Part shown: piece by piece, positions 24,431 through 30,906 of the stretch
How positions within the stretch are numbered: position 1 is the stretch's first letter
Layout: every line of letters starts with the position of its first letter
Sequence record: LR597658
Source: Escherichia phage VpaE1_ev108
Reading direction: 5' to 3' (one strand)
DNA: 64,000 bases
The notes under the pieces: model-generated
What the model was told of the DNA's origin: nothing
What the model saw: only the letters and a program-made list of their open reading frames with translations
Databases searched by the model: none
Made by a program: the position numbers and the translations under genes

Positions 24431-25846
24431 ATGAGCGAATTATTTAAACATGCGCACCTTCATGCAGGTCGAACTGAAAATGGTGCTATAAACCATACTT
24501 CATCAATGTCTGCTCTTGTAGACTTTTACAAAGCTGCGGGTTCTAGCCGTAGCAATGTAGAAATCTTACCAGACCTGTTCTACAAAGCTTTGCGTGAGGA
24601 TGTTGATGTTGCAGTTCGTATTTTGCTTCATATGCGAGATGTACGAGAGGGTATGGGTGAGCGTAAAGCTTTCCGAACCGTTTTGCTTCAAGCAATTGAA
24701 GATAAAGTTTTAGAGCCTACACAGGTTCTTCGCATTATGGATAAGATTGCAGAACTTGGTCGTTTTGATGACTTCAAAATCTTCGTAGGTACTCGTTTCG
24801 AGACAGATGCCTTCAAACATTTAGAAGCAGCATTACTAGACCCTGCAACAGCAGGTTTGGCAGCTAAGTGGTTACCACGAGTAAAACCACGTCATAAGCA
24901 GTTTGTAAAACGTTTCTGCAAGTTTGCCAACTTGAGTGAGAAAGAGTACCGCACACTGTTGTCTGCACTATCTGATACAGTTGAGCAAAAAATCTCTGCT
25001 AATGAGTTTGGTAAGATTGACTACAGTAAGATTCCTTCTCTTGCTGCTGCACGTTACCAAAAGCTGTTTAACCGTAAAGATGGAGAGCGTTACAAAGCTT
25101 ACATCGAGTCCTTATCAAAAGGTGAGACTAAGATTAACGCTGGTGCTGTTTACCCATACGATGTGATTAAATCTGTTAAGTATGGTAATGCAGATGTTGC
25201 TAATGAGCAGTGGAAAGCACTACCAAACTGGATGGCAGAAGGTGAAAACATCTTGTGTATGTCTGATGTATCAAGTTCAATGTCTTGGGTGAATTTTGGC
25301 TCCATTACTGCTCTGGATATTGGTGTATCACTTGCCTTGTATGTAGCAGAACGCAATACAGGTTGCTTTAAGAATGAGTTAATGGTTTATTCAACAAACC
25401 CTCACTTCATCGAACTGAGTGGTGATTTACGAAACCGTCATCGTCAGGTGATGCGACACGTTGAATATGGCTCAACTAACTTACAAGCAGCTTTTGACCG
25501 CATTCTTGAAACAGGTAAAAGAAACAACTTGACTCAGAAAGATATGCCAAGTAAGCTTATCATCTTCTCCGATATGGAGTTCAATCAGGTTGATGGAGCT
25601 AACGGTCGTACAAACTTTGAAGCAATTCAGAGTAAGTACAAAAAAGCTGGATATGAGATGCCACAACTGGTATTCTGGTACTTAGCAAACCGTAATGGTA
25701 CTTGCGAAGTATCTGTTAAGGATAACGGTGTAGCAATGGTATCAGGGTTCTCTCCAGCCACTTTAAAAGCTCTGCTTGGTGGTGAGAAGTTTGACCCAAT
25801 CAGCGTAATGCTCAAAGCAGTAATGATTGACCGTTATATCTGGTAA
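24431..25846 (+). CDS. Ro60/TROVE-like protein with C-terminal vWA domain (MIDAS motif)
   Basis: GENILCMSDVSSSMSW (DxSxS MIDAS, cf. Ro60 ..DVSASM as recalled), GSTNLQAAF, LIIFSDMEFN vWA motifs; ~270 aa helical N-terminal region; GAGAG SD. Confidence 0.6.
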   Translation: MSELFKHAHLHAGRTENGAINHTSSMSALVDFYKAAGSSRSNVEILPDLFYKALREDVDVAVRILLHMRDVREGMGERKAFRTVLLQAIEDKVLEPTQVLRIMDKIAELGRFDDFKIFVGTRFETDAFKHLEAALLDPATAGLAAKWLPRVKPRHKQFVKRFCKFANLSEKEYRTLLSALSDTVEQKISANEFGKIDYSKIPSLAAARYQKLFNRKDGERYKAYIESLSKGETKINAGAVYPYDVIKSVKYGNADVANEQWKALPNWMAEGENILCMSDVSSSMSWVNFGSITALDIGVSLALYVAERNTGCFKNELMVYSTNPHFIELSGDLRNRHRQVMRHVEYGSTNLQAAFDRILETGKRNNLTQKDMPSKLIIFSDMEFNQVDGANGRTNFEAIQSKYKKAGYEMPQLVFWYLANRNGTCEVSVKDNGVAMVSGFSPATLKALLGGEKFDPISVMLKAVMIDRYIW

Positions 25847-25849
25847 AAA

Positions 25850-25895
25850 GTTTTAAAAAGGGTATTGACAATGTGTTTAATACCCTTTAATATGT
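25850..25895 (+). promoter_or_regulatory. sigma70-like promoter upstream of tRNA island
   Basis: TTTTAAAAAGGGTA-TTGACA - 17 nt - TAATAT. Confidence 0.55.
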
Positions 25896-25949
25896 TCTAC
25901 ATAGAAACGAAATGAGAGCTTTTCTAAGATACTGAAAAATATTTTAAAA

Positions 25950-25990
25950 AAGTTCTTGACAATCACTAAAAAATAATGTTAAAGTGGTTA
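25950..25990 (+). promoter_or_regulatory. sigma70-like promoter upstream of tRNA island
   Basis: TTTTAAAAAAGTTC-TTGACA - 18 nt - TAAAGT. Confidence 0.45.
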
Positions 25991-26095: not shown

Positions 26096-26173
26096 GTTCC
26101 AGTAGACAAAATGGTAAAGTCACCACTCTTTCAAAGTGGATATCTGAGGGTTCAAATCCCTTCTGGAACGCCA
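26096..26173 (+). tRNA. tRNA-Glu (anticodon UUC)
   Basis: acceptor GTTCCAG/CTGGAAC, T-loop TTCAAAT, anticodon stem CCACT/AGTGG, loop ctTTCaa, CCA. Confidence 0.65.
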
Positions 26174-26178
26174 GTTTT

Positions 26179-26256
26179 GACAGAAGACCAATTACAGCAA
26201 ACTTAATCTTATTCATCTGAAGGTAAATCGGACAAAGAAGAGATTTGGTCTGGTCA
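26179..26256 (+). repeat. E1: conserved bulged-stem element (CAGAAGACCAA ... TTGGTCTGG)
   Basis: 5' block CAGAAGACCAATTACAGCAA and 3' block TTGGTCTGG form a 7 bp helix enclosing ~52 nt. Confidence 0.5.
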
Positions 26257-26264
26257 TTAAGAAT

Positions 26265-26341
26265 TGCGGGTATAGAGAAAGGGCGTCTCACATGTCTCAT
26301 TAGCATGGTATCGGCAGGTTCGACTCCTGCACCCGCCTCCA
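26265..26341 (+). tRNA. tRNA with CAU anticodon (Met, fMet or Ile-lysidine type)
   Basis: T-arm GCAGG-TTCGACT-CCTGC, acceptor with mismatch at pair 1-72, loop ctCATta, CCA. Confidence 0.5.
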
Positions 26342-26345
26342 AATT

Positions 26346-26415
26346 TACAGAAGACCGTTTACAGCAATATTTATTAAATTTTTAGCGGAAAAAATTGAAA
26401 GATACGGTCTGGTAA
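26346..26415 (+). repeat. E2: conserved bulged-stem element (CAGAAGACCGT ... ACGGTCTGG)
   Basis: same flanks as E1 with compensatory AA/TT to GT/AC change in the helix. Confidence 0.5.
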
Positions 26416-26425
26416 TACTAAACAT

Positions 26426-26502
26426 GGTTAGGAAGCACATAAGGTATGTGCGGTCGCCTGTTAAGCGAATGGCACAGGGTTCGAATCCCTGACTAACCGC
26501 CA
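26426..26502 (+). tRNA. tRNA-Asn (anticodon GUU)
   Basis: T-arm CAGGG-TTCGAAT-CCCTG, loop ctGTTaa, CCA. Confidence 0.65.
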
Positions 26503-26571
26503 AATTTAGGAGAGAAGCGATTGCTCACCGATTTGTAAGGTGCAAGTCCTTAGCCTGAATAGAAATTAAAT

Positions 26572-26659
26572 GTGTCGTTATCCCGTAGATGGTAGCGGTG
26601 GGGACTGTAAATCCCTTGTCATTGAGACTCGGTAGGTTCGACTCCTACACGGCACACCA
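26572..26659 (+). tRNA. tRNA-Tyr (anticodon GUA), long variable arm
   Basis: 88 nt; acceptor GTGTCGT/ACGGCAC, anticodon stem GGGGA/TCCCT, loop ctGTAaa, T-loop TTCGACT, CCA. Confidence 0.65.
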
Positions 26660-26664
26660 ATAAA

Positions 26665-26742
26665 GGTTATGTAGTTTAATTTGGTTAAAATACTCCCCTG
26701 TCACGGGAGATGATGAGGGTTCAAATCCCTTCGTAACCGCCA
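26665..26742 (+). tRNA. tRNA-Asp (anticodon GUC)
   Basis: anticodon stem CTCCC/GGGAG, loop ctGTCac, T-loop TTCAAAT, CCA. Confidence 0.7.
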
Positions 26743-26801
26743 ATTTTGAGAGGGCTATTTAGCCCCTCCCTTAAAGGGTTCTTACGAGTATTCTTTAAAG
26801 G

Positions 26802-26880
26802 AGCAGAAGACCAAATTCAGCAAGTTACTTAAAATTTCAAGCCAATTTAATTTTGAAAAATTTAAAACTTGGTCTGGCTC
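26802..26880 (+). repeat. E3: conserved bulged-stem element (CAGAAGACCAA ... TTGGTCTGG)
   Basis: same conserved flanks, ~54 nt AT-rich insert. Confidence 0.5.
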
Positions 26881-26888
26881 AACAAATT

Positions 26889-27024
26889 TACAGAAGACCG
26901 TTTACAGCAAAACTTAACAATCTATTTCTCCGGTAAAGAAAAGGCGAAGGTTCGATTCCTTCACTCGGCAGATGTCGAGTTGGTGTAATGGTAGTACTTA
27001 AGATGATAAACAACGGTCTGGTAA
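26889..27024 (+). ncRNA. E4: candidate structured RNA, bulged stem enclosing a tRNA-like T-arm (Y-RNA-like?)
   Basis: CAGAAGACCGT ... ACGGTCTGG helix; interior has perfect T-arm GAAGG-TTCGATT-CCTTC, a second hairpin ACTCG..CGAGT and D-loop-like AGTTGGTGTAATGGTAG, but no acceptor stem. Confidence 0.35.
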
Positions 27025-27170
27025 TTATCTTTGTAGATAAGTTATTAAGCTTACCTGTGAGTATGCGACCACAAAGGGTGAAAGGGTAAATTCTAGATTT
27101 AAACCCAAAAAGGCACATCGCTACAGACCTTAAGCAAGTCTGGGTAGCTTATCTACAAAGATAATTTAAT

Positions 27171-27246
27171 GGAAGTGTAGCAGAATGGTGATGCGGCAGA
27201 CTTTTAATCTGACAGGCGATGGGTTCGAATCCCTCCACTTCTACCA
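27171..27246 (+). tRNA. tRNA-Lys (anticodon UUU)
   Basis: acceptor GGAAGTG/CACTTCT, loop ctTTTaa, T-loop TTCGAAT, CCA. Confidence 0.6.
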
Positions 27247-27328: not shown

Positions 27329-27404
27329 GCTGGTATAGTTAAGAAGGTTATAACACTCCCCTGATAAGGGAACATCGGTGGTTCGATTCCACCTACCAGT
27401 ACCA
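27329..27404 (+). tRNA. tRNA-Ile (anticodon GAU)
   Basis: loop ctGATaa, T-arm GGTGG-TTCGATT-CCACC, CCA. Confidence 0.65.
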
Positions 27405-27411
27405 ATTTCAA

Positions 27412-27450
27412 TAAAGTTGTTGACATTGAGATGTGACTACTTTATAGTAA
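27412..27450 (+). promoter_or_regulatory. sigma70-like promoter internal to tRNA island
   Basis: AAAGTTG-TTGACA - 17 nt - TATAGT. Confidence 0.55.
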
Positions 27451-27651
27451 CCTTAGTTTTCGTTGCGTAGCGTCTATTTTGCAAATTTAAAATAAATGCA
27501 AACGACAATGTTTTTCTGGCAGTAGCTTGATAGGCTAAACACCAGTGAGGTCTTCCAATCCCTCATCAAAGAATTTGGCGTACTCGCCCACGGTATGATT
27601 AATAAGGTGGGCATCTTTAAGGGCTTTCTAAGAGAGTCTTTAAAGATTAAT

Positions 27652-27728: not shown

Positions 27729-27870
27729 ATTAGTTAGCAGATTACTTAGACGACCTAAGCGGGTCTTCCTGTAGGGAGGTGGTCTGTATCTCATGTTTTC
27801 CAGAACATGTAAATAATCTGAGAAGGGGCTTTACAGTGTTGAGATAATACGGTAAGCTTCGAATTATAGT

Positions 27871-27953
27871 ATGGGACGATGTTAAGACTCTAAGGCATGA
27901 GCAACGGCTTCCAACACCGTTTCAAAGGGGTTCAACTCCTCCGTCCCATGCCA
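27871..27953 (+). tRNA. tRNA-Trp-like (anticodon CCA), atypical 83 nt with enlarged D region
   Basis: perfect acceptor ATGGGAC/GTCCCAT, T-loop TTCAACT, loop ttCCAac, CCA; D-arm cannot be folded canonically. Confidence 0.4.
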
Positions 27954-27966
27954 AAATCTTATTAGG

Positions 27967-28210: not shown

Positions 28211-28233
28211 AAAGACCTTTTTAGGTCTTTTTA
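28211..28233 (+). terminator. hairpin plus T-run inside tRNA island
   Basis: AAGACC-ttttta-GGTCTT followed by TTTTAG; stem uses the same AGACC/GGTCT motif as the E elements. Confidence 0.35.
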
Positions 28234-28311
28234 GAGGGCTTCTAAGGTTATTACAGCTTGTTGTGGAACCTTGTTGCTTAGGTTCTTAGAAGTTCTCTAA
28301 AAAGATTTAAT

Positions 28312-30813: not shown

Positions 30814-30906
30814 GGAAGATTAACCCTAAAAGGTAAGGGAGCAGTTTGCTAAACTGCCAGTAGCTGAGAAATCGGTGTACCAGTTCAAGTCTGGTATCTT
30901 CCTCCA
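30814..30906 (+). tRNA. tRNA-Ser (anticodon GCU), long variable arm
   Basis: 93 nt; acceptor GGAAGAT/ATCTTCC, anticodon stem GCAGT/ACTGC, loop ttGCTaa, T-arm ACCAG-TTCAAGT-CTGGT, CCA. Confidence 0.65.

What the first reader, a model, noticed from the sequence alone, without database searches (positions are those of the whole stretch)
27026..27170. Inverted pair of TTATCT-N4-AGATAA hairpins bracketing ~100 bp inside the tRNA island
AATTATCTTTGTAGATAAG (27026-27048) and its reverse complement (27148-27170) flank a 100 bp segment that ends in a CAGACC..GTCTGG stem. This could be a long RNA stem-loop, a recombination site or a paired operator.
Basis: seen in the sequence. Interest (0 to 1): 0.35.

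Follow-up and report, generated by a model that had tools for sequence, protein, structure and literature searches.

The report
Structured RNA in phage tRNA island
The inverted repeat is real: it is the 24-base-pair closing stem of a conserved, unannotated ~144-nt structured RNA of unknown role that Felix O1-like phages carry among their tRNA genes, beside four Y-RNA-like small RNA genes and a gene for a Ro60-like protein.

Summary
The window is a Felix O1-like phage (Felixounavirus). The inverted repeat exists, about 3 nt left of the stated coordinates (27023-27046 / 27143-27166). It closes a multi-branched fold of 144 nt. In 21 sequence variants from four lineages, 98% of the proposed pairs form. 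Eleven of 31 pairs show compensatory changes. The many G-U pairs work only on the + strand, the tRNA strand. So it is an RNA structure, not a DNA site. The TTATCT-N4-AGATAA sub-palindromes occur only in one sequence type, which argues against operators. The element matches no Rfam family, is absent from E. coli genomes and is not coding.

Context gives the best lead. The gene just upstream of the tRNA island (24431-25846, DUF2828) is predicted to fold like Ro60. Four neighbouring elements (E1-E4) share a module: AAG, a stem, then UUACAGCAA, and at the far end the returning stem strand followed by CUG. E4 also carries a permuted, YrlA-like tRNA mimic. The same module flanks DUF2828 genes in many phage families (57 hits on the gene strand against 3 on the opposite strand in 75 viral loci). 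It also resembles dictyostelid Class I RNAs.

The hairpin is probably a further RNA of this Ro-like system. Its function, and any binding to the protein, are untested.

The parts
27023..27046 (+). P1, 5' strand of the closing stem (AAUUAUCUUUGUAGAUAAGUUAUU). It contains the type-A-only sub-palindrome TTATCT-N4-AGATAA at 27025-27040.
   Evidence: fold; 24 pairs, 98.0% of cells paired, 9 pairs with changes on both sides.
27143..27166 (+). P1, 3' strand of the closing stem (GGUAGCUUAUCUACAAAGAUAAUU).
27051..27080 (+). P2, an apical branch with loop AGUAUGCGAC. In L052 the stem is GGGG/CCCC around nearly the same loop.
   Evidence: MFE folds and the sequence. This is the weakest part of the model: type B has a different P2.
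27084..27106 (+). P3, hairpin GGGUAAA-UUCUAGA-UUUAAACCC. The 7-nt loop UUCUAGA (27091-27097) is invariant in types A and B, while the stem sequence is entirely different (type B: AGCAUGA/UUAGCU). L052 keeps CUAG at the apex.
   Evidence: (alignments).
27112..27122 (+). Small predicted 3-bp hairpin GGC-ACAUC-GCU between P3 and P4.
   Evidence: MFE only. Not tested by covariation.
27124..27142 (+). P4, hairpin CAGAC-CUUAAGCAA-GUCUG. The loop CUU(A/U)AGCAA is invariant in four lineages. The stem covaries: CAGACC/GGUCUG, CAAACC/GGUUUG, CAGUC/GACUG, CUGUUC/GAACGG. The loop resembles the UUACAGCAA motif of E1-E4.
   Evidence: 5 pairs, 100% paired, 2 compensatory.
24431..25846 (+). Context: a 471-aa DUF2828 + DUF7788 protein with a predicted Ro60-like fold (TROVE-type ring plus vWA domain), directly upstream of the tRNA island.
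   Evidence: Pfam and PHROG scans. AlphaFold model with pLDDT 87.7. Foldseek top PDB hits are Ro60 2i91/1yvp, phage phiLo Ro60 9l5y/9kop and Rsr 2nvo, E 4e-8 to 5e-7. The preprint 10.1101/2024.10.10.617714 says the same of Bas63 gp130.
25865..25985 (+). Context: two sigma-70-like promoters (TTGACA-17-TAATAT at 25865-25893; TTGACA-18-TAAAGT at 25956-25985). They are the presumed start of the transcription unit that includes the hairpin.
   Evidence: The next strong + strand promoter is at 27420, and no + strand terminator-like site lies between 25889 and 30134.
26178..26256 (+). Context: E1, a short Class-I-like / Y-like RNA element (UGAC-AGA-AGACCAA-UUACAGCAA...UUGGUCU-G-GUCA).
   Evidence: Rfam RF01414 scores 19.7 bits, below its gathering score.
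26345..26415 (+). Context: E2, a short Class-I-like / Y-like RNA element.
   Evidence: RF01414 scores 20.5 bits.
26801..26880 (+). Context: E3, a short element with the motif variant AUUCAGCAA.
26888..27024 (+). Context: E4, which has the same terminal module enclosing a circularly permuted tRNA-like domain (26925-26997). The parts are: anticodon-like arm 26925-26941; T arm 26946-26962; acceptor 3' strand 26963-26969; loop AGAU; acceptor 5' strand 26974-26980; D arm 26983-26997. The order T arm, acceptor stem, D arm is that of YrlA. The last 2 nt of its outer helix overlap the first 2 nt of P1.
   Evidence: Sequence. Partial Rfam tRNA hit at 26914-26963. The acceptor-like stem covaries: ACUCGGC/GUCGAGU here, ACACGUU/GGCGUGU in Sf15, ACCCUUC-G-CCA-AACA-GAAGGGU in Michonne, CGCUCCC-A-CCA...GGGAGUG in L053. 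The Klebsiella phage counterpart hits Rfam YrlA at 39.6 bits.
27171..27246 (+). Context: tRNA-Lys(UUU). RNase P cleavage at its 5' end would set the 3' end of the hairpin RNA 4 nt after P1.
   Evidence: The processing step is inferred from general knowledge of tRNA maturation.

Best explanation
Positions 27023-27166 encode a stand-alone structured non-coding RNA of about 144 nt, read from the + strand. A 24-bp stem (P1) closes a multi-branched apex: P2; P3 with the invariant loop UUCUAGA; a small hairpin; and P4 with the invariant loop CUU(A/U)AGCAA.

Shown here: the fold, its conservation and covariation, the strand, and the absence of coding potential.

Inferred:
(1) It is co-transcribed with the tRNAs from the promoters at about 25865 and 25956.
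(2) Its 3' end is made by RNase P cutting at tRNA-Lys (27171). Its 5' end is made by maturation of the preceding E4 RNA, with RNase III possibly trimming the long duplex.
(3) It belongs to the phage's Ro60-like ribonucleoprotein system. That system comprises the DUF2828 protein encoded at 24431-25846 and the four small RNAs E1-E4, which carry the module AAG-stem-UUACAGCAA...stem-CUG. E4 additionally carries a YrlA-like tRNA mimic.

The hairpin always follows an E element and precedes tRNA-Lys. Its P4 loop imitates the E motif. In the most distant homologue its closing stem carries a degenerate E module. It is therefore most likely a derived fifth RNA of this set, acting as a ligand or scaffold for the Ro-like protein or its partners during infection. 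What it does biochemically is not known.
For: Structure and strand:
- All five homologues tested fold far better than shuffles, z = -4.5 to -6.2.
- Over 21 distinct variants, 98.3% of cells pair, against 31-46% when the partner columns are slid. Eleven of 31 pairs changed on both sides. None of 500 shuffles reached the observed covariation score.
- 79 cells are G-U pairs. Counting from the table, the - strand would pair only about 86% of cells.
- The interior exists as two very different sequence types, A and B. Both keep the same hairpins, and within type B the helix around P3 covaries (CG to UA in 5 sequences, UA to CG in 3).
- More distant relatives keep P1 and P4 through further compensatory changes (L052, whose Ro-like protein is 63% identical, and L053, 57%).

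Conservation:
- Type A is >=90% identical in 189 phage records, including Felix O1 itself.

Transcription context:
- All 26 tRNA genes are on the + strand.
- Promoter-like sites lie upstream, and no terminator-like site lies in between.

Ro-like context:
- The fold search of the DUF2828 protein returns Ro60 structures, and a preprint says the same of the Bas63 homologue.
- The E module covaries in 25 elements from 8 phage lineages: the inner helix is 98.9% paired and 6 of 7 pairs are compensatory.
- In 75 environmental viral loci that carry a DUF2828 homologue, the strict module occurs 57 times in 37 loci on the gene's strand. It occurs 3 times on the opposite strand and 0-3 times in shuffles.
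- In Klebsiella phage FBKp34, the Rfam YrlA hit just downstream of the DUF2828 gene is bracketed by this module.

Links between the hairpin and the E elements:
- The position is constant: after an E element and before tRNA-Lys, in the window, L052 and L053.
- P4 reads CAGACC-(C)UUUAGCAA-GGUCUG, against the E form CAGAAGACC-GUUUACAGCAA...GGUCUGG.
- The outer stem in L053 reads AAAG-AAUCU-UUCAGCAUU...AGAUUC-CCUG.
Against: - No transcript data were found, so transcription, the RNA ends and stability are all inferred.
- The hairpin does not satisfy the E-module definition. The C of CAGCAA is invariant in the 25 curated E elements, and the later scan of 75 viral loci required it in its search pattern. 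In the P4 loop that C is A or U.
- The window's P1 lacks the AAG...CUG flanks.
- In L053 the motif-like sequence is predicted to be base-paired rather than free.
- Apart from P1, P3 and P4, the interior is poorly conserved between lineages.
- Binding of any of these RNAs to the DUF2828 protein has not been shown for this protein family.
- A long perfect duplex could equally be only a processing signal.
Confidence: 0.6

Rival explanations
1. It is only a processing signal. The 22-24-bp duplex is an RNase III site that cuts the polycistronic tRNA / small-RNA precursor between the upstream group (tRNAs plus E1-E4) and tRNA-Lys. The excised piece has no function of its own.
For: A near-perfect RNA helix of 22-24 bp is the size that E. 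coli RNase III recognises (general knowledge). It sits between two blocks of RNA genes in one transcription unit. The stem is the best-conserved part.
Against: A processing stem would not need a 96-nt interior. Yet the P3 loop (UUCUAGA) and P4 loop (CUU(A/U)AGCAA) stay invariant while their stems covary. The neighbouring tRNAs and E elements are separated by only a few nucleotides without any such hairpin, so RNase P and RNase E-type processing evidently suffices elsewhere. This rival is compatible with the best explanation rather than exclusive of it.
Confidence: 0.22
2. It is a tRNA-derived mimic. The four-way arrangement (long 'acceptor' P1, P2, P3 with a 7-nt loop reading U-U-CUA-G-A, P4) is a cloverleaf relic. 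It might act as a decoy for a host anticodon nuclease or another tRNA-binding defence protein, or it might pair through CUAG with tRNA-Leu(UAG).
For: The branch order matches a cloverleaf. The P3 loop has pyrimidine-U-NNN-purine spacing with CUA in the anticodon position in types A and B. The neighbouring E4 is a clear tRNA mimic. Phage tRNA islands are thought to counter tRNA-targeting defences (stated in the preprint read).
Against: ARAGORN and the Rfam tRNA model find nothing here. There is no T-loop or D-loop signature. In L052 the apex keeps only CUAG, not the anticodon-loop format, and L053 lacks it altogether.
Confidence: 0.1
3. It is a DNA-level element: two palindromic operators for a dimeric repressor, a cruciform or recombination site, or the terminal inverted repeats of a small mobile element.
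For: Each arm contains TTATCT-N4-AGATAA, and the two exact copies are the only ones in the window. The DNA arms are 95% complementary.
Against: The sub-palindromes are absent from type B, L052 and L053, while arm-to-arm pairing is kept by compensatory changes. The G-U pairs mean the DNA duplex arms are not equally complementary on both strands. There is a single copy per genome at a fixed locus, no flanking direct repeats, and no match in 5,426 E. coli genomes.
Confidence: 0.03
4. It is an intrinsic terminator or attenuator, or part of a protein-coding gene. Felix O1 and wV8 annotate a hypothetical ORF on the - strand across it.
For: It is a strong hairpin. wV8 gp048 and a Felix O1 'unknown' CDS overlap it. 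The window has a 76-aa - strand ORF at 26888-27118.
Against: The base of the stem is A/U-rich with no U tract. tRNA-Lys begins 4 nt downstream with no promoter in between. The - strand ORF is split in Sf15 and absent in L052. Its 'EGIEPSP' stretch looks to me like the antisense reading of the E4 T arm (my reading, not tested).
Confidence: 0.03

Closest known systems
Bacterial and phage Y RNAs, especially YrlA (Rfam RF02553; Chen et al. 2014, PMC4201824) and the Yrl1/Yrl2 RNAs of Thermus phage phiLo (PMC12135203)
   Same: They are encoded next to a gene for a Ro60-fold protein. The 5' and 3' ends pair into a long closing stem around a variable, structured interior. Several different RNAs occur per locus. 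The neighbour E4 has the YrlA order T arm, acceptor-like stem, D arm.
   Different: The protein is DUF2828, not a Pfam TROVE match. The Y RNA signature GNCGAA(N)G / CGAA is absent. The hairpin has no tRNA-like domain. Rfam YrlA does not hit the window at all. The neighbouring E RNAs use a different signature, UUACAGCAA.
Dictyostelid Class I RNAs (Rfam RF01414; Kjellin et al. 2021, PMC7919456)
   Same: For the neighbours E1-E3 and their relatives in other phages: AAG start, a short stem joining the 5' and 3' ends, an 11-nt motif ending in UUACAGCAA directly after the 5' stem strand, a variable A/U-rich interior, a CUG(U/G) end, and a length of about 50-80 nt. RF01414 is the only Rfam family that these elements hit. 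The hairpin's P4 loop carries a one-base-different version of the motif.
   Different: All hits score 19.6-25.2 bits, below the gathering score of 41.5. The hairpin itself is 144 nt with a 24-bp stem and does not match. Class I RNAs were reported as unique to Dictyostelia. Their known direct binder is an RRM protein (Rnp1A/CIBP), not a Ro-like protein. Common descent rather than convergence is untested.
Stable non-tRNA RNAs inside phage tRNA clusters (phage T4 'species 1' and 'species 2' RNAs; from my own knowledge, not checked here)
   Same: They are small structured RNAs of unknown function, co-transcribed and co-processed with phage tRNAs.
   Different: No sequence or structural comparison was made here. 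T4 has no DUF2828 gene that I know of.
RNase III processing stems in phage and rRNA precursors (for example T7 early-region sites and the 16S/23S flanking stems; from my own knowledge)
   Same: They are long, nearly perfect RNA duplexes formed by sequences that flank a structured RNA within a polycistronic transcript.
   Different: The T7 sites are small hairpins without a conserved branched interior. Cleavage of this stem is not shown.

Membership tests
YrlA / bacterial Y RNA (RF02553) | Encoded adjacent to a Ro60 (TROVE + vWA) gene | tested here: met
   The hairpin lies 1.2 kb downstream of 24431-25846, in the same orientation. The predicted structure of that protein matches Ro60 chains over its full length (E 4e-8 to 5e-7, TM normalised to the query 0.48-0.66). 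By sequence it is DUF2828, not Pfam TROVE.
YrlA / bacterial Y RNA (RF02553) | 5' and 3' ends pair into a closing stem that carries the conserved GNCGAA(N)G / CGAA motif | tested here: not met
   The closing stem is present, but P1 and its flanks contain no GNCGAA or CGAA motif (sequence).
YrlA / bacterial Y RNA (RF02553) | tRNA-like domain in the order T arm, acceptor-like stem, D arm | tested here: not met
   It is absent from 27023-27166. It is present in the adjacent E4, 26925-26997.
YrlA / bacterial Y RNA (RF02553) | Reaches the Rfam gathering score (69 bits) | tested here: not met
   There is no YrlA hit at E <= 10 in 26170-27175. The Klebsiella phage counterpart of E4 scores 39.6 bits.
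Dictyostelid Class I RNA (RF01414) | 42-65 nt, with a short stem joining the 5' and 3' ends | tested here: not met
   The hairpin is 144 nt with a 24-bp stem. E1-E3 are 59-68 nt from the inner-helix start to the UG, and 71-80 nt as listed in parts with their outer helices. Their inner helix is 6-7 bp.
Dictyostelid Class I RNA (RF01414) | 11-nt motif (CCUUACAGCAA) directly 3' of the 5' stem strand, with AAG...CUGU ends | tested here: inconclusive
   In the hairpin, only motif-like sequences are found: UUAAGCUUA after P1, CUUAAGCAA in the P4 loop, and UUCAGCAUU with AAAG...CCUG flanks in L053. E1, E2 and E4 have AAG-stem-UUACAGCAA...stem-CUGG exactly.
Dictyostelid Class I RNA (RF01414) | Reaches the Rfam gathering score (41.5 bits) | tested here: not met
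   The hairpin gives no hit. E1 scores 19.7 and E2 20.5 bits. Elements in other phages score 19.6-25.2 bits.
tRNA | Cloverleaf with T-loop and D-loop signatures, detected by ARAGORN or Rfam RF00005 | tested here: not met
   There is no call within 27023-27166.
Paired protein operators | Palindromic half-sites conserved among relatives | tested here: not met
   TTATCT-N4-AGATAA is present only in type A. It is absent in type B, L052 and L053.
Mobile element with terminal inverted repeats (MITE-like) | Multiple copies, target-site duplication, presence/absence polymorphism | tested here: not met
   There is one copy in the window. In the records listed there is one place per record at the same locus, with a few exceptions showing two places that I did not examine. 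The Asp-to-Lys gap is about 425 bp in all relatives examined. There is no E. coli match.
Intrinsic terminator | G+C-rich stem followed by a U tract | tested here: not met
   The terminator scan does not list it. The base of the stem is A/U-rich, and tRNA-Lys follows 4 nt later.
RNase III substrate | About two turns (>=20 bp) of nearly perfect dsRNA; cleavage by RNase III | not testable with these tools
   The helix length criterion is met (22-24 bp). Cleavage cannot be tested here.

The most novel reading that the evidence does not exclude
The hairpin and its four neighbours may be the RNA components of a previously undescribed, phage-wide ribonucleoprotein built on DUF2828 proteins (Ro60 fold). 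The signature RNA module of this system is AAG, a stem, NNACAGCAA, a variable or tRNA-like insert, the returning stem strand, then CUG. It is the same as the module of dictyostelid Class I RNAs. Those abundant RNAs have had an unknown mechanism for two decades and were thought unique to social amoebae. If the link holds, Class I RNAs would be the 'Y RNAs' of a Ro60-like protein. [quoted passage not shown] Phages would then carry the same system inside their tRNA islands, probably as a counter-defence or RNA-quality-control device.
Probability: 0.3. Interest if true: 0.85.

Novelty: new variant of a known kind. Interest (0 to 1): 0.6.

Why it matters
For the hairpin alone: Felix O1 is a classic Salmonella typing and biocontrol phage, and Felix O1-like phages are widely isolated. 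The hairpin is a well-supported, unannotated structured RNA in these phages. In some records it is covered by a spurious 'hypothetical protein' annotation.

For the context: a preprint noted that the gene upstream of the Bas63 tRNAs looks like Ro60 and counters the ppl defence. It guessed that some of the 'tRNAs' might be Y RNAs. This analysis points to the actual candidate RNAs, defines their shared module, and shows that the module accompanies DUF2828 genes across many unrelated phage families. That makes the RNP directly testable by immunoprecipitation, gel-shift assays and deletions.

The unexpected match of the module to dictyostelid Class I RNAs offers a concrete hypothesis for the protein partner and mechanism of those RNAs.

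Tried and rejected
- Rfam, at permissive thresholds, finds no family for 27023-27166.
- ARAGORN calls no tRNA or tmRNA there.
- The hairpin has no match in complete E. coli genomes.
- Protein coding is rejected: the - strand ORF is not conserved.
- The operator, MITE and terminator readings are rejected.
- A sequence search of the DUF2828 protein against PDB sequences found nothing, and NCBIfam found nothing useful. Only the fold search showed the Ro60 relationship.
- The AlphaFold-database fold search, intended to look for a Dictyostelium DUF2828 protein, was not available.
- The original Class I RNA pull-down paper (Avesson 2011) is not held. A search for DDB_G0281243 returned only the Kjellin preprint. 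So the Dictyostelium protein link could not be tested.
- Literature searches for the motif sequence, for DUF2828 and for Felix O1 transcriptomics found nothing relevant.
- The strict module scan did not find the module beside the DUF2828 genes of Vibrio phage XZ1 or Mycobacterium phage BigCheese, so the association is common but not universal.
- tRNAscan-SE's 129-nt 'tRNA-Thr(GGT)' call in phage ASO1B is best read as a misreading of the 3' half of E4.
Full report
**What the window is.** The 436 bases around the finding match 251 phage records. Most are 95-99% identical Felix O1-like phages of Escherichia, Salmonella and Shigella (genus Felixounavirus). The 144-nt element itself is 100% identical in Felix O1. 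ARAGORN finds 26 tRNA genes between 26012 and 30986, all on the + strand. The finding lies in the 428-nt gap between tRNA-Asp (ends 26742) and tRNA-Lys(UUU) (starts 27171).

**The observation.**
- The inverted repeat is real. Its arms are 27023-27044 and 27145-27166 (22 nt, 95% complementary, 100 nt apart). With G-U pairs it extends to 24 bp.
- Each arm contains TTATCT-N4-AGATAA. These are the only exact copies in the window.
- The inner CAGAC...GUCUG stem is at 27124-27142.
- As RNA the + strand folds at -47.8 kcal/mol, z = -6.2 against shuffles.

**RNA or DNA, and which strand.** I aligned the region from relatives of decreasing similarity: other Felixounavirus, Mooglevirus (Sf15, KMM2, Michonne), Suspvirus (mistaenkt), and two metagenomic phages whose Ro-like protein is 63% (L052) and 57% (L053) identical.
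- The gap has the same length in all Felixounavirus, Mooglevirus and Suspvirus relatives.
- The interior of the hairpin comes in two very different sequence types. Type A is the window and 189 phage records. Type B is fBSPA4, DaR-2019a, Mooglevirus and Suspvirus.
- Across 21 distinct variants, 98.3% of cells in P1, in the two alignable pairs of P3, and in P4 form standard pairs. When the partner columns are slid, 31-46% do.
- Eleven of 31 pairs show changes on both sides. None of 500 shuffles reaches the observed covariation score.
- 79 cells are G-U pairs, which would be A-C mismatches on the other strand. Counting from that table, the - strand would pair only about 86% of cells.
- Within type B, the helix enclosing P3 covaries.
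- The P3 loop UUCUAGA is identical in types A and B, although the stems have nothing in common (GGGUAAA/UUUAAACCC against AGCAUGA/UUAGCU).
- The P4 loop CUU(A/U)AGCAA is invariant in all four lineages, while its stem changes through CAGACC/GGUCUG, CAAACC/GGUUUG, CAGUC/GACUG and CUGUUC/GAACGG.
- All five homologues tested fold with z between -4.5 and -6.2.

This is the signature of a structured RNA read from the tRNA strand.

**Rejected readings.**
- Operators. The TTATCT-N4-AGATAA sub-palindromes are confined to type A, so a paired operator is unlikely.
- Mobile or recombination element. There is a single copy per genome at a fixed locus, without flanking repeats, and none in 5,426 E. coli genomes.
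- Terminator. There is no U tract, and tRNA-Lys starts 4 nt later without a promoter in between.
- Coding sequence. The 76-aa - strand ORF, which some records annotate as a hypothetical protein, is split in Sf15 and absent in L052.
- Known RNA family. Rfam has none for the element.

**The surroundings.** The gene just upstream of the island (24431-25846) is a DUF2828 + DUF7788 protein. PHROGs labels it an 'RNA-binding protein'.
- An AlphaFold model built on 27 homologues (pLDDT 87.7) matches Ro60 structures over its full length. The matches are Xenopus Ro60 2i91/1yvp, the Ro60 of Thermus phage phiLo 9l5y/9kop, and Deinococcus Rsr 2nvo (E 4e-8 to 5e-7).
- A 2024 preprint reports the same resemblance for the Bas63 homologue gp130. 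It shows that gp130 counters the ppl defence system, and it speculates that some neighbouring 'tRNAs' are Y RNAs, without identifying them.
- Homologues occur in 709 phage records from many families. Mycobacteriophage records name them 'Ro-like RNA binding protein'.

**Four candidate partner RNAs.** CAGAAGACC occurs four times in the window, all in a 0.8-kb stretch of the island. Each copy is followed 50-125 nt later by GGTCTGG.
- These define E1 (26178-26256), E2 (26345-26415), E3 (26801-26880) and E4 (26888-27024).
- They share, in order: a 4-bp outer helix that covaries between copies (UUAC/GUAA, UGAC/GUCA, GAGC/GCUC); a small internal loop; an inner helix (AGACCNN/NNGGUCU) that also covaries (GACCAA/UUGGUC against GACCGU/ACGGUC); and the motif UUACAGCAA directly after the 5' strand.
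- E4 encloses a circularly permuted tRNA-like domain. It consists of an anticodon-like arm, a perfect T arm (GAAGG-UUCGAUU-CCUUC), a 7-bp acceptor-like stem closed by a loop, then a D arm. This is the T arm, acceptor stem, D arm order that defines YrlA.
- The acceptor-like stem is completely rewritten but kept in relatives. In Michonne and L053 the loop even encodes a discriminator base plus CCA.
- In Klebsiella phage FBKp34 (protein 52% identical), the Rfam YrlA model hits the gap after the DUF2828 gene (39.6 bits, E 2.5e-7, below the gathering score). That hit is bracketed by the same module with a different stem (AGAAGC-UUUACAGCAA...GCUUCUG).

**The module follows DUF2828 genes widely.**
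- A pattern scan finds it next to the DUF2828 gene in Campylobacter, Listeria, Staphylococcus, Bacillus, Cronobacter and Klebsiella phages.
- In 25 curated elements the inner helix is 98.9% paired and 6 of 7 pairs are compensatory. CAGCA and the 3' UG are invariant.
- In 75 environmental viral loci chosen only for carrying a DUF2828 homologue of 38-47% identity, the strict module occurs 57 times in 37 loci on the gene's strand. It occurs 3 times on the opposite strand and 0-3 times in shuffles. Almost all hits lie within a few hundred bases of the gene.
- Lengths appear to fall into two groups, about 46-62 nt and about 90-215 nt. The longer ones presumably carry an inserted domain, as E4 does.
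- The scan found no module beside the Vibrio XZ1 and mycobacteriophage BigCheese genes, so the association is frequent but not universal.

**An unexpected resemblance.** The only Rfam family that the short elements hit is RF01414, the Class I RNAs of Dictyostelium. Eight elements from four phage families hit it. All matches cover the full model, and all score 19.6-25.2 bits, below the gathering score of 41.5.
- The published description of Class I RNAs fits point by point: 42-65 nt, start AAG, a short covarying stem joining the ends, an 11-nt motif CCUUACAGCAA directly after the 5' strand, a variable interior, and the end CUGU.
- Those RNAs were reported as unique to Dictyostelia.
- One of four proteins pulled down with a Class I RNA, DDB_G0281243, has unknown function.
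- I could not test whether that protein, or any dictyostelid protein, is DUF2828-like.

**Where the hairpin fits.**
- It always lies immediately after an E-type element and immediately before tRNA-Lys(UUU). This holds even in L052, which lacks E4.
- Its first 2 nt overlap the outer helix of E4.
- Its P4 hairpin reads like an E module without the variable insert and without two to three bases of the motif. Compare UACAGACC-(C)UUUAGCAA-GGUCUG with UACAGAAGACC-GUUUACAGCAA...GGUCUGG.
- In L053 its closing stem has AAAG...CCUG flanks and UUCAGCAUU at the motif position.
- These are hints of common origin or shared binding, not proof. The C of CAGCAA, invariant in the 25 curated E elements, is A or U in the P4 loop. 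In L053 the motif-like sequence is predicted to be paired.

**Most likely mechanism.**
Shown: a conserved, + strand, non-coding, multi-branched RNA structure.
Inferred:
- It is co-transcribed with the tRNAs from the promoters at 25865 and 25956.
- Its 3' end is made by RNase P at 27171.
- Its 5' end is made by maturation of E4, and RNase III may trim the long duplex.
- It takes part in the phage's Ro60-like RNP, together with E1-E4.

The main rival is that it is merely an RNase III processing stem. The conserved apical loops argue against 'merely', but the two ideas are compatible.

**Verdict.** The RNA stem-loop reading is right, and the operator and recombination readings are not. The hairpin is a new, unannotated structured RNA whose own function remains unknown. 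Its neighbourhood reveals a Y-RNA-like system of an undescribed variety that is worth experimental follow-up.

Noticed in passing
window 26178-26256, 26345-26415, 26801-26880, 26888-27024: Four elements (E1-E4) are bracketed by CAGAAGACC...GGTCTGG. They have covarying stems and the motif UUACAGCAA, and they form a family of small RNAs inside the tRNA island. None is annotated in the phage records I looked at.
   Followed up: yes
window 26925-26997 (inside E4): A circularly permuted tRNA-like domain: anticodon-like arm with loop CCGGUAA, T arm, closed 7-bp acceptor-like stem, D arm. Relatives rewrite the acceptor-like stem completely, and two of them (Michonne, L053) encode CCA in its loop. That suggests RNase P cleavage and a two-piece tRNA-like product. 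tRNAscan-SE miscalls the 3' half as a 129-nt tRNA-Thr(GGT) in phage ASO1B (L008 203-331).
   Followed up: partly
window 24431-25846: A DUF2828/DUF7788 protein with a predicted Ro60 fold lies directly upstream of the tRNA island. Homologues are present in 709 phage records from many families.
   Followed up: yes
L059-L133 (75 IMG/VR loci), L044, L045, L047, L049, L050, L051: The stem-NNACAGCAA...stem-UG module flanks DUF2828 genes in many unrelated phages: 57 hits on the gene strand against 3 on the opposite strand. Its only Rfam resemblance is to Dictyostelium Class I RNAs (RF01414, below the gathering score).
   Followed up: yes
L044 5503-5616 (Klebsiella phage FBKp34); L045 5396-5516 and 5526-5638 (Cronobacter phage S13): Over-long 'tRNAs' (113-121 nt) are annotated just after the DUF2828 gene. 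The Klebsiella one is a tRNA-Asp with an insert, cuucuUAGagaag-UUUUACAGCAuu, between the D and anticodon arms. That is the same position where the E4 module opens its tRNA-like domain.
   Followed up: partly
window 27023-27166 compared with L002, L005 (Felixounavirus carrying type B): Two sharply different interior sequences (types A and B) of the hairpin circulate within the same genus, on otherwise about 95-99% identical flanks. This suggests replacement of the cassette by recombination.
   Followed up: partly
window 27124-27142 and 30814-30906: The type B P4 loop contains UUAGCAA, which is exactly complementary to the anticodon loop UUGCUAA of the phage's own tRNA-Ser(GCU). AGCAA in the E motif is complementary to UUGCU as well. 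This may be coincidence.
   Followed up: no
window 27346-27651: Weak Rfam hits below the gathering score: permuted tmRNA (29.2 bits, 27346-27530) and tmRNA (15.9 bits, 27462-27651). They lie in the 247-nt gap after tRNA-Ile, which also holds the best promoter match of the island (TTGACA-17-TATAGT at 27420-27448). L052 gives a similar weak tmRNA hit at the equivalent place.
   Followed up: no
window 28221-28310: A second long inverted repeat in the island (26-nt arms, 85% complementary, 38 nt apart) lies just upstream of tRNA-Leu(UAG). It gives a spurious-looking miRNA-family hit (MIR473, 32.7 bits).
   Followed up: no
window 26503-26571 and 27870-27960: T-arm-like sequences followed by CCA (GGTGCAAGTCC... 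at 26539; GGTTCAACTCCTCCGTCCCATGCCA at 27929-27953) lie in gaps where ARAGORN calls no tRNA. They may be odd or decayed tRNA-like genes. wV8 annotates a pseudo 'tRNA-OTHER' between its tRNA-Ile and an HNH endonuclease gene, which may correspond to the second site.
   Followed up: no
L049 928-1479 (Listeria phage LMSP-25): An Rfam ROOL RNA hit (88.5 bits, just below the gathering score of 99.1) lies about 1 kb upstream of that phage's DUF2828 gene, among tRNAs and Class-I-like elements. An RtcB-type tRNA-splicing ligase gene lies about 1.3 kb downstream.
   Followed up: no
L001 5231-5635 (wV8), L006 193-621 (mistaenkt): HNH homing endonuclease genes are inserted at different places in the tRNA islands of relatives but not in the window. 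This is a source of the structural variation seen in the BLAST coverage.
   Followed up: no
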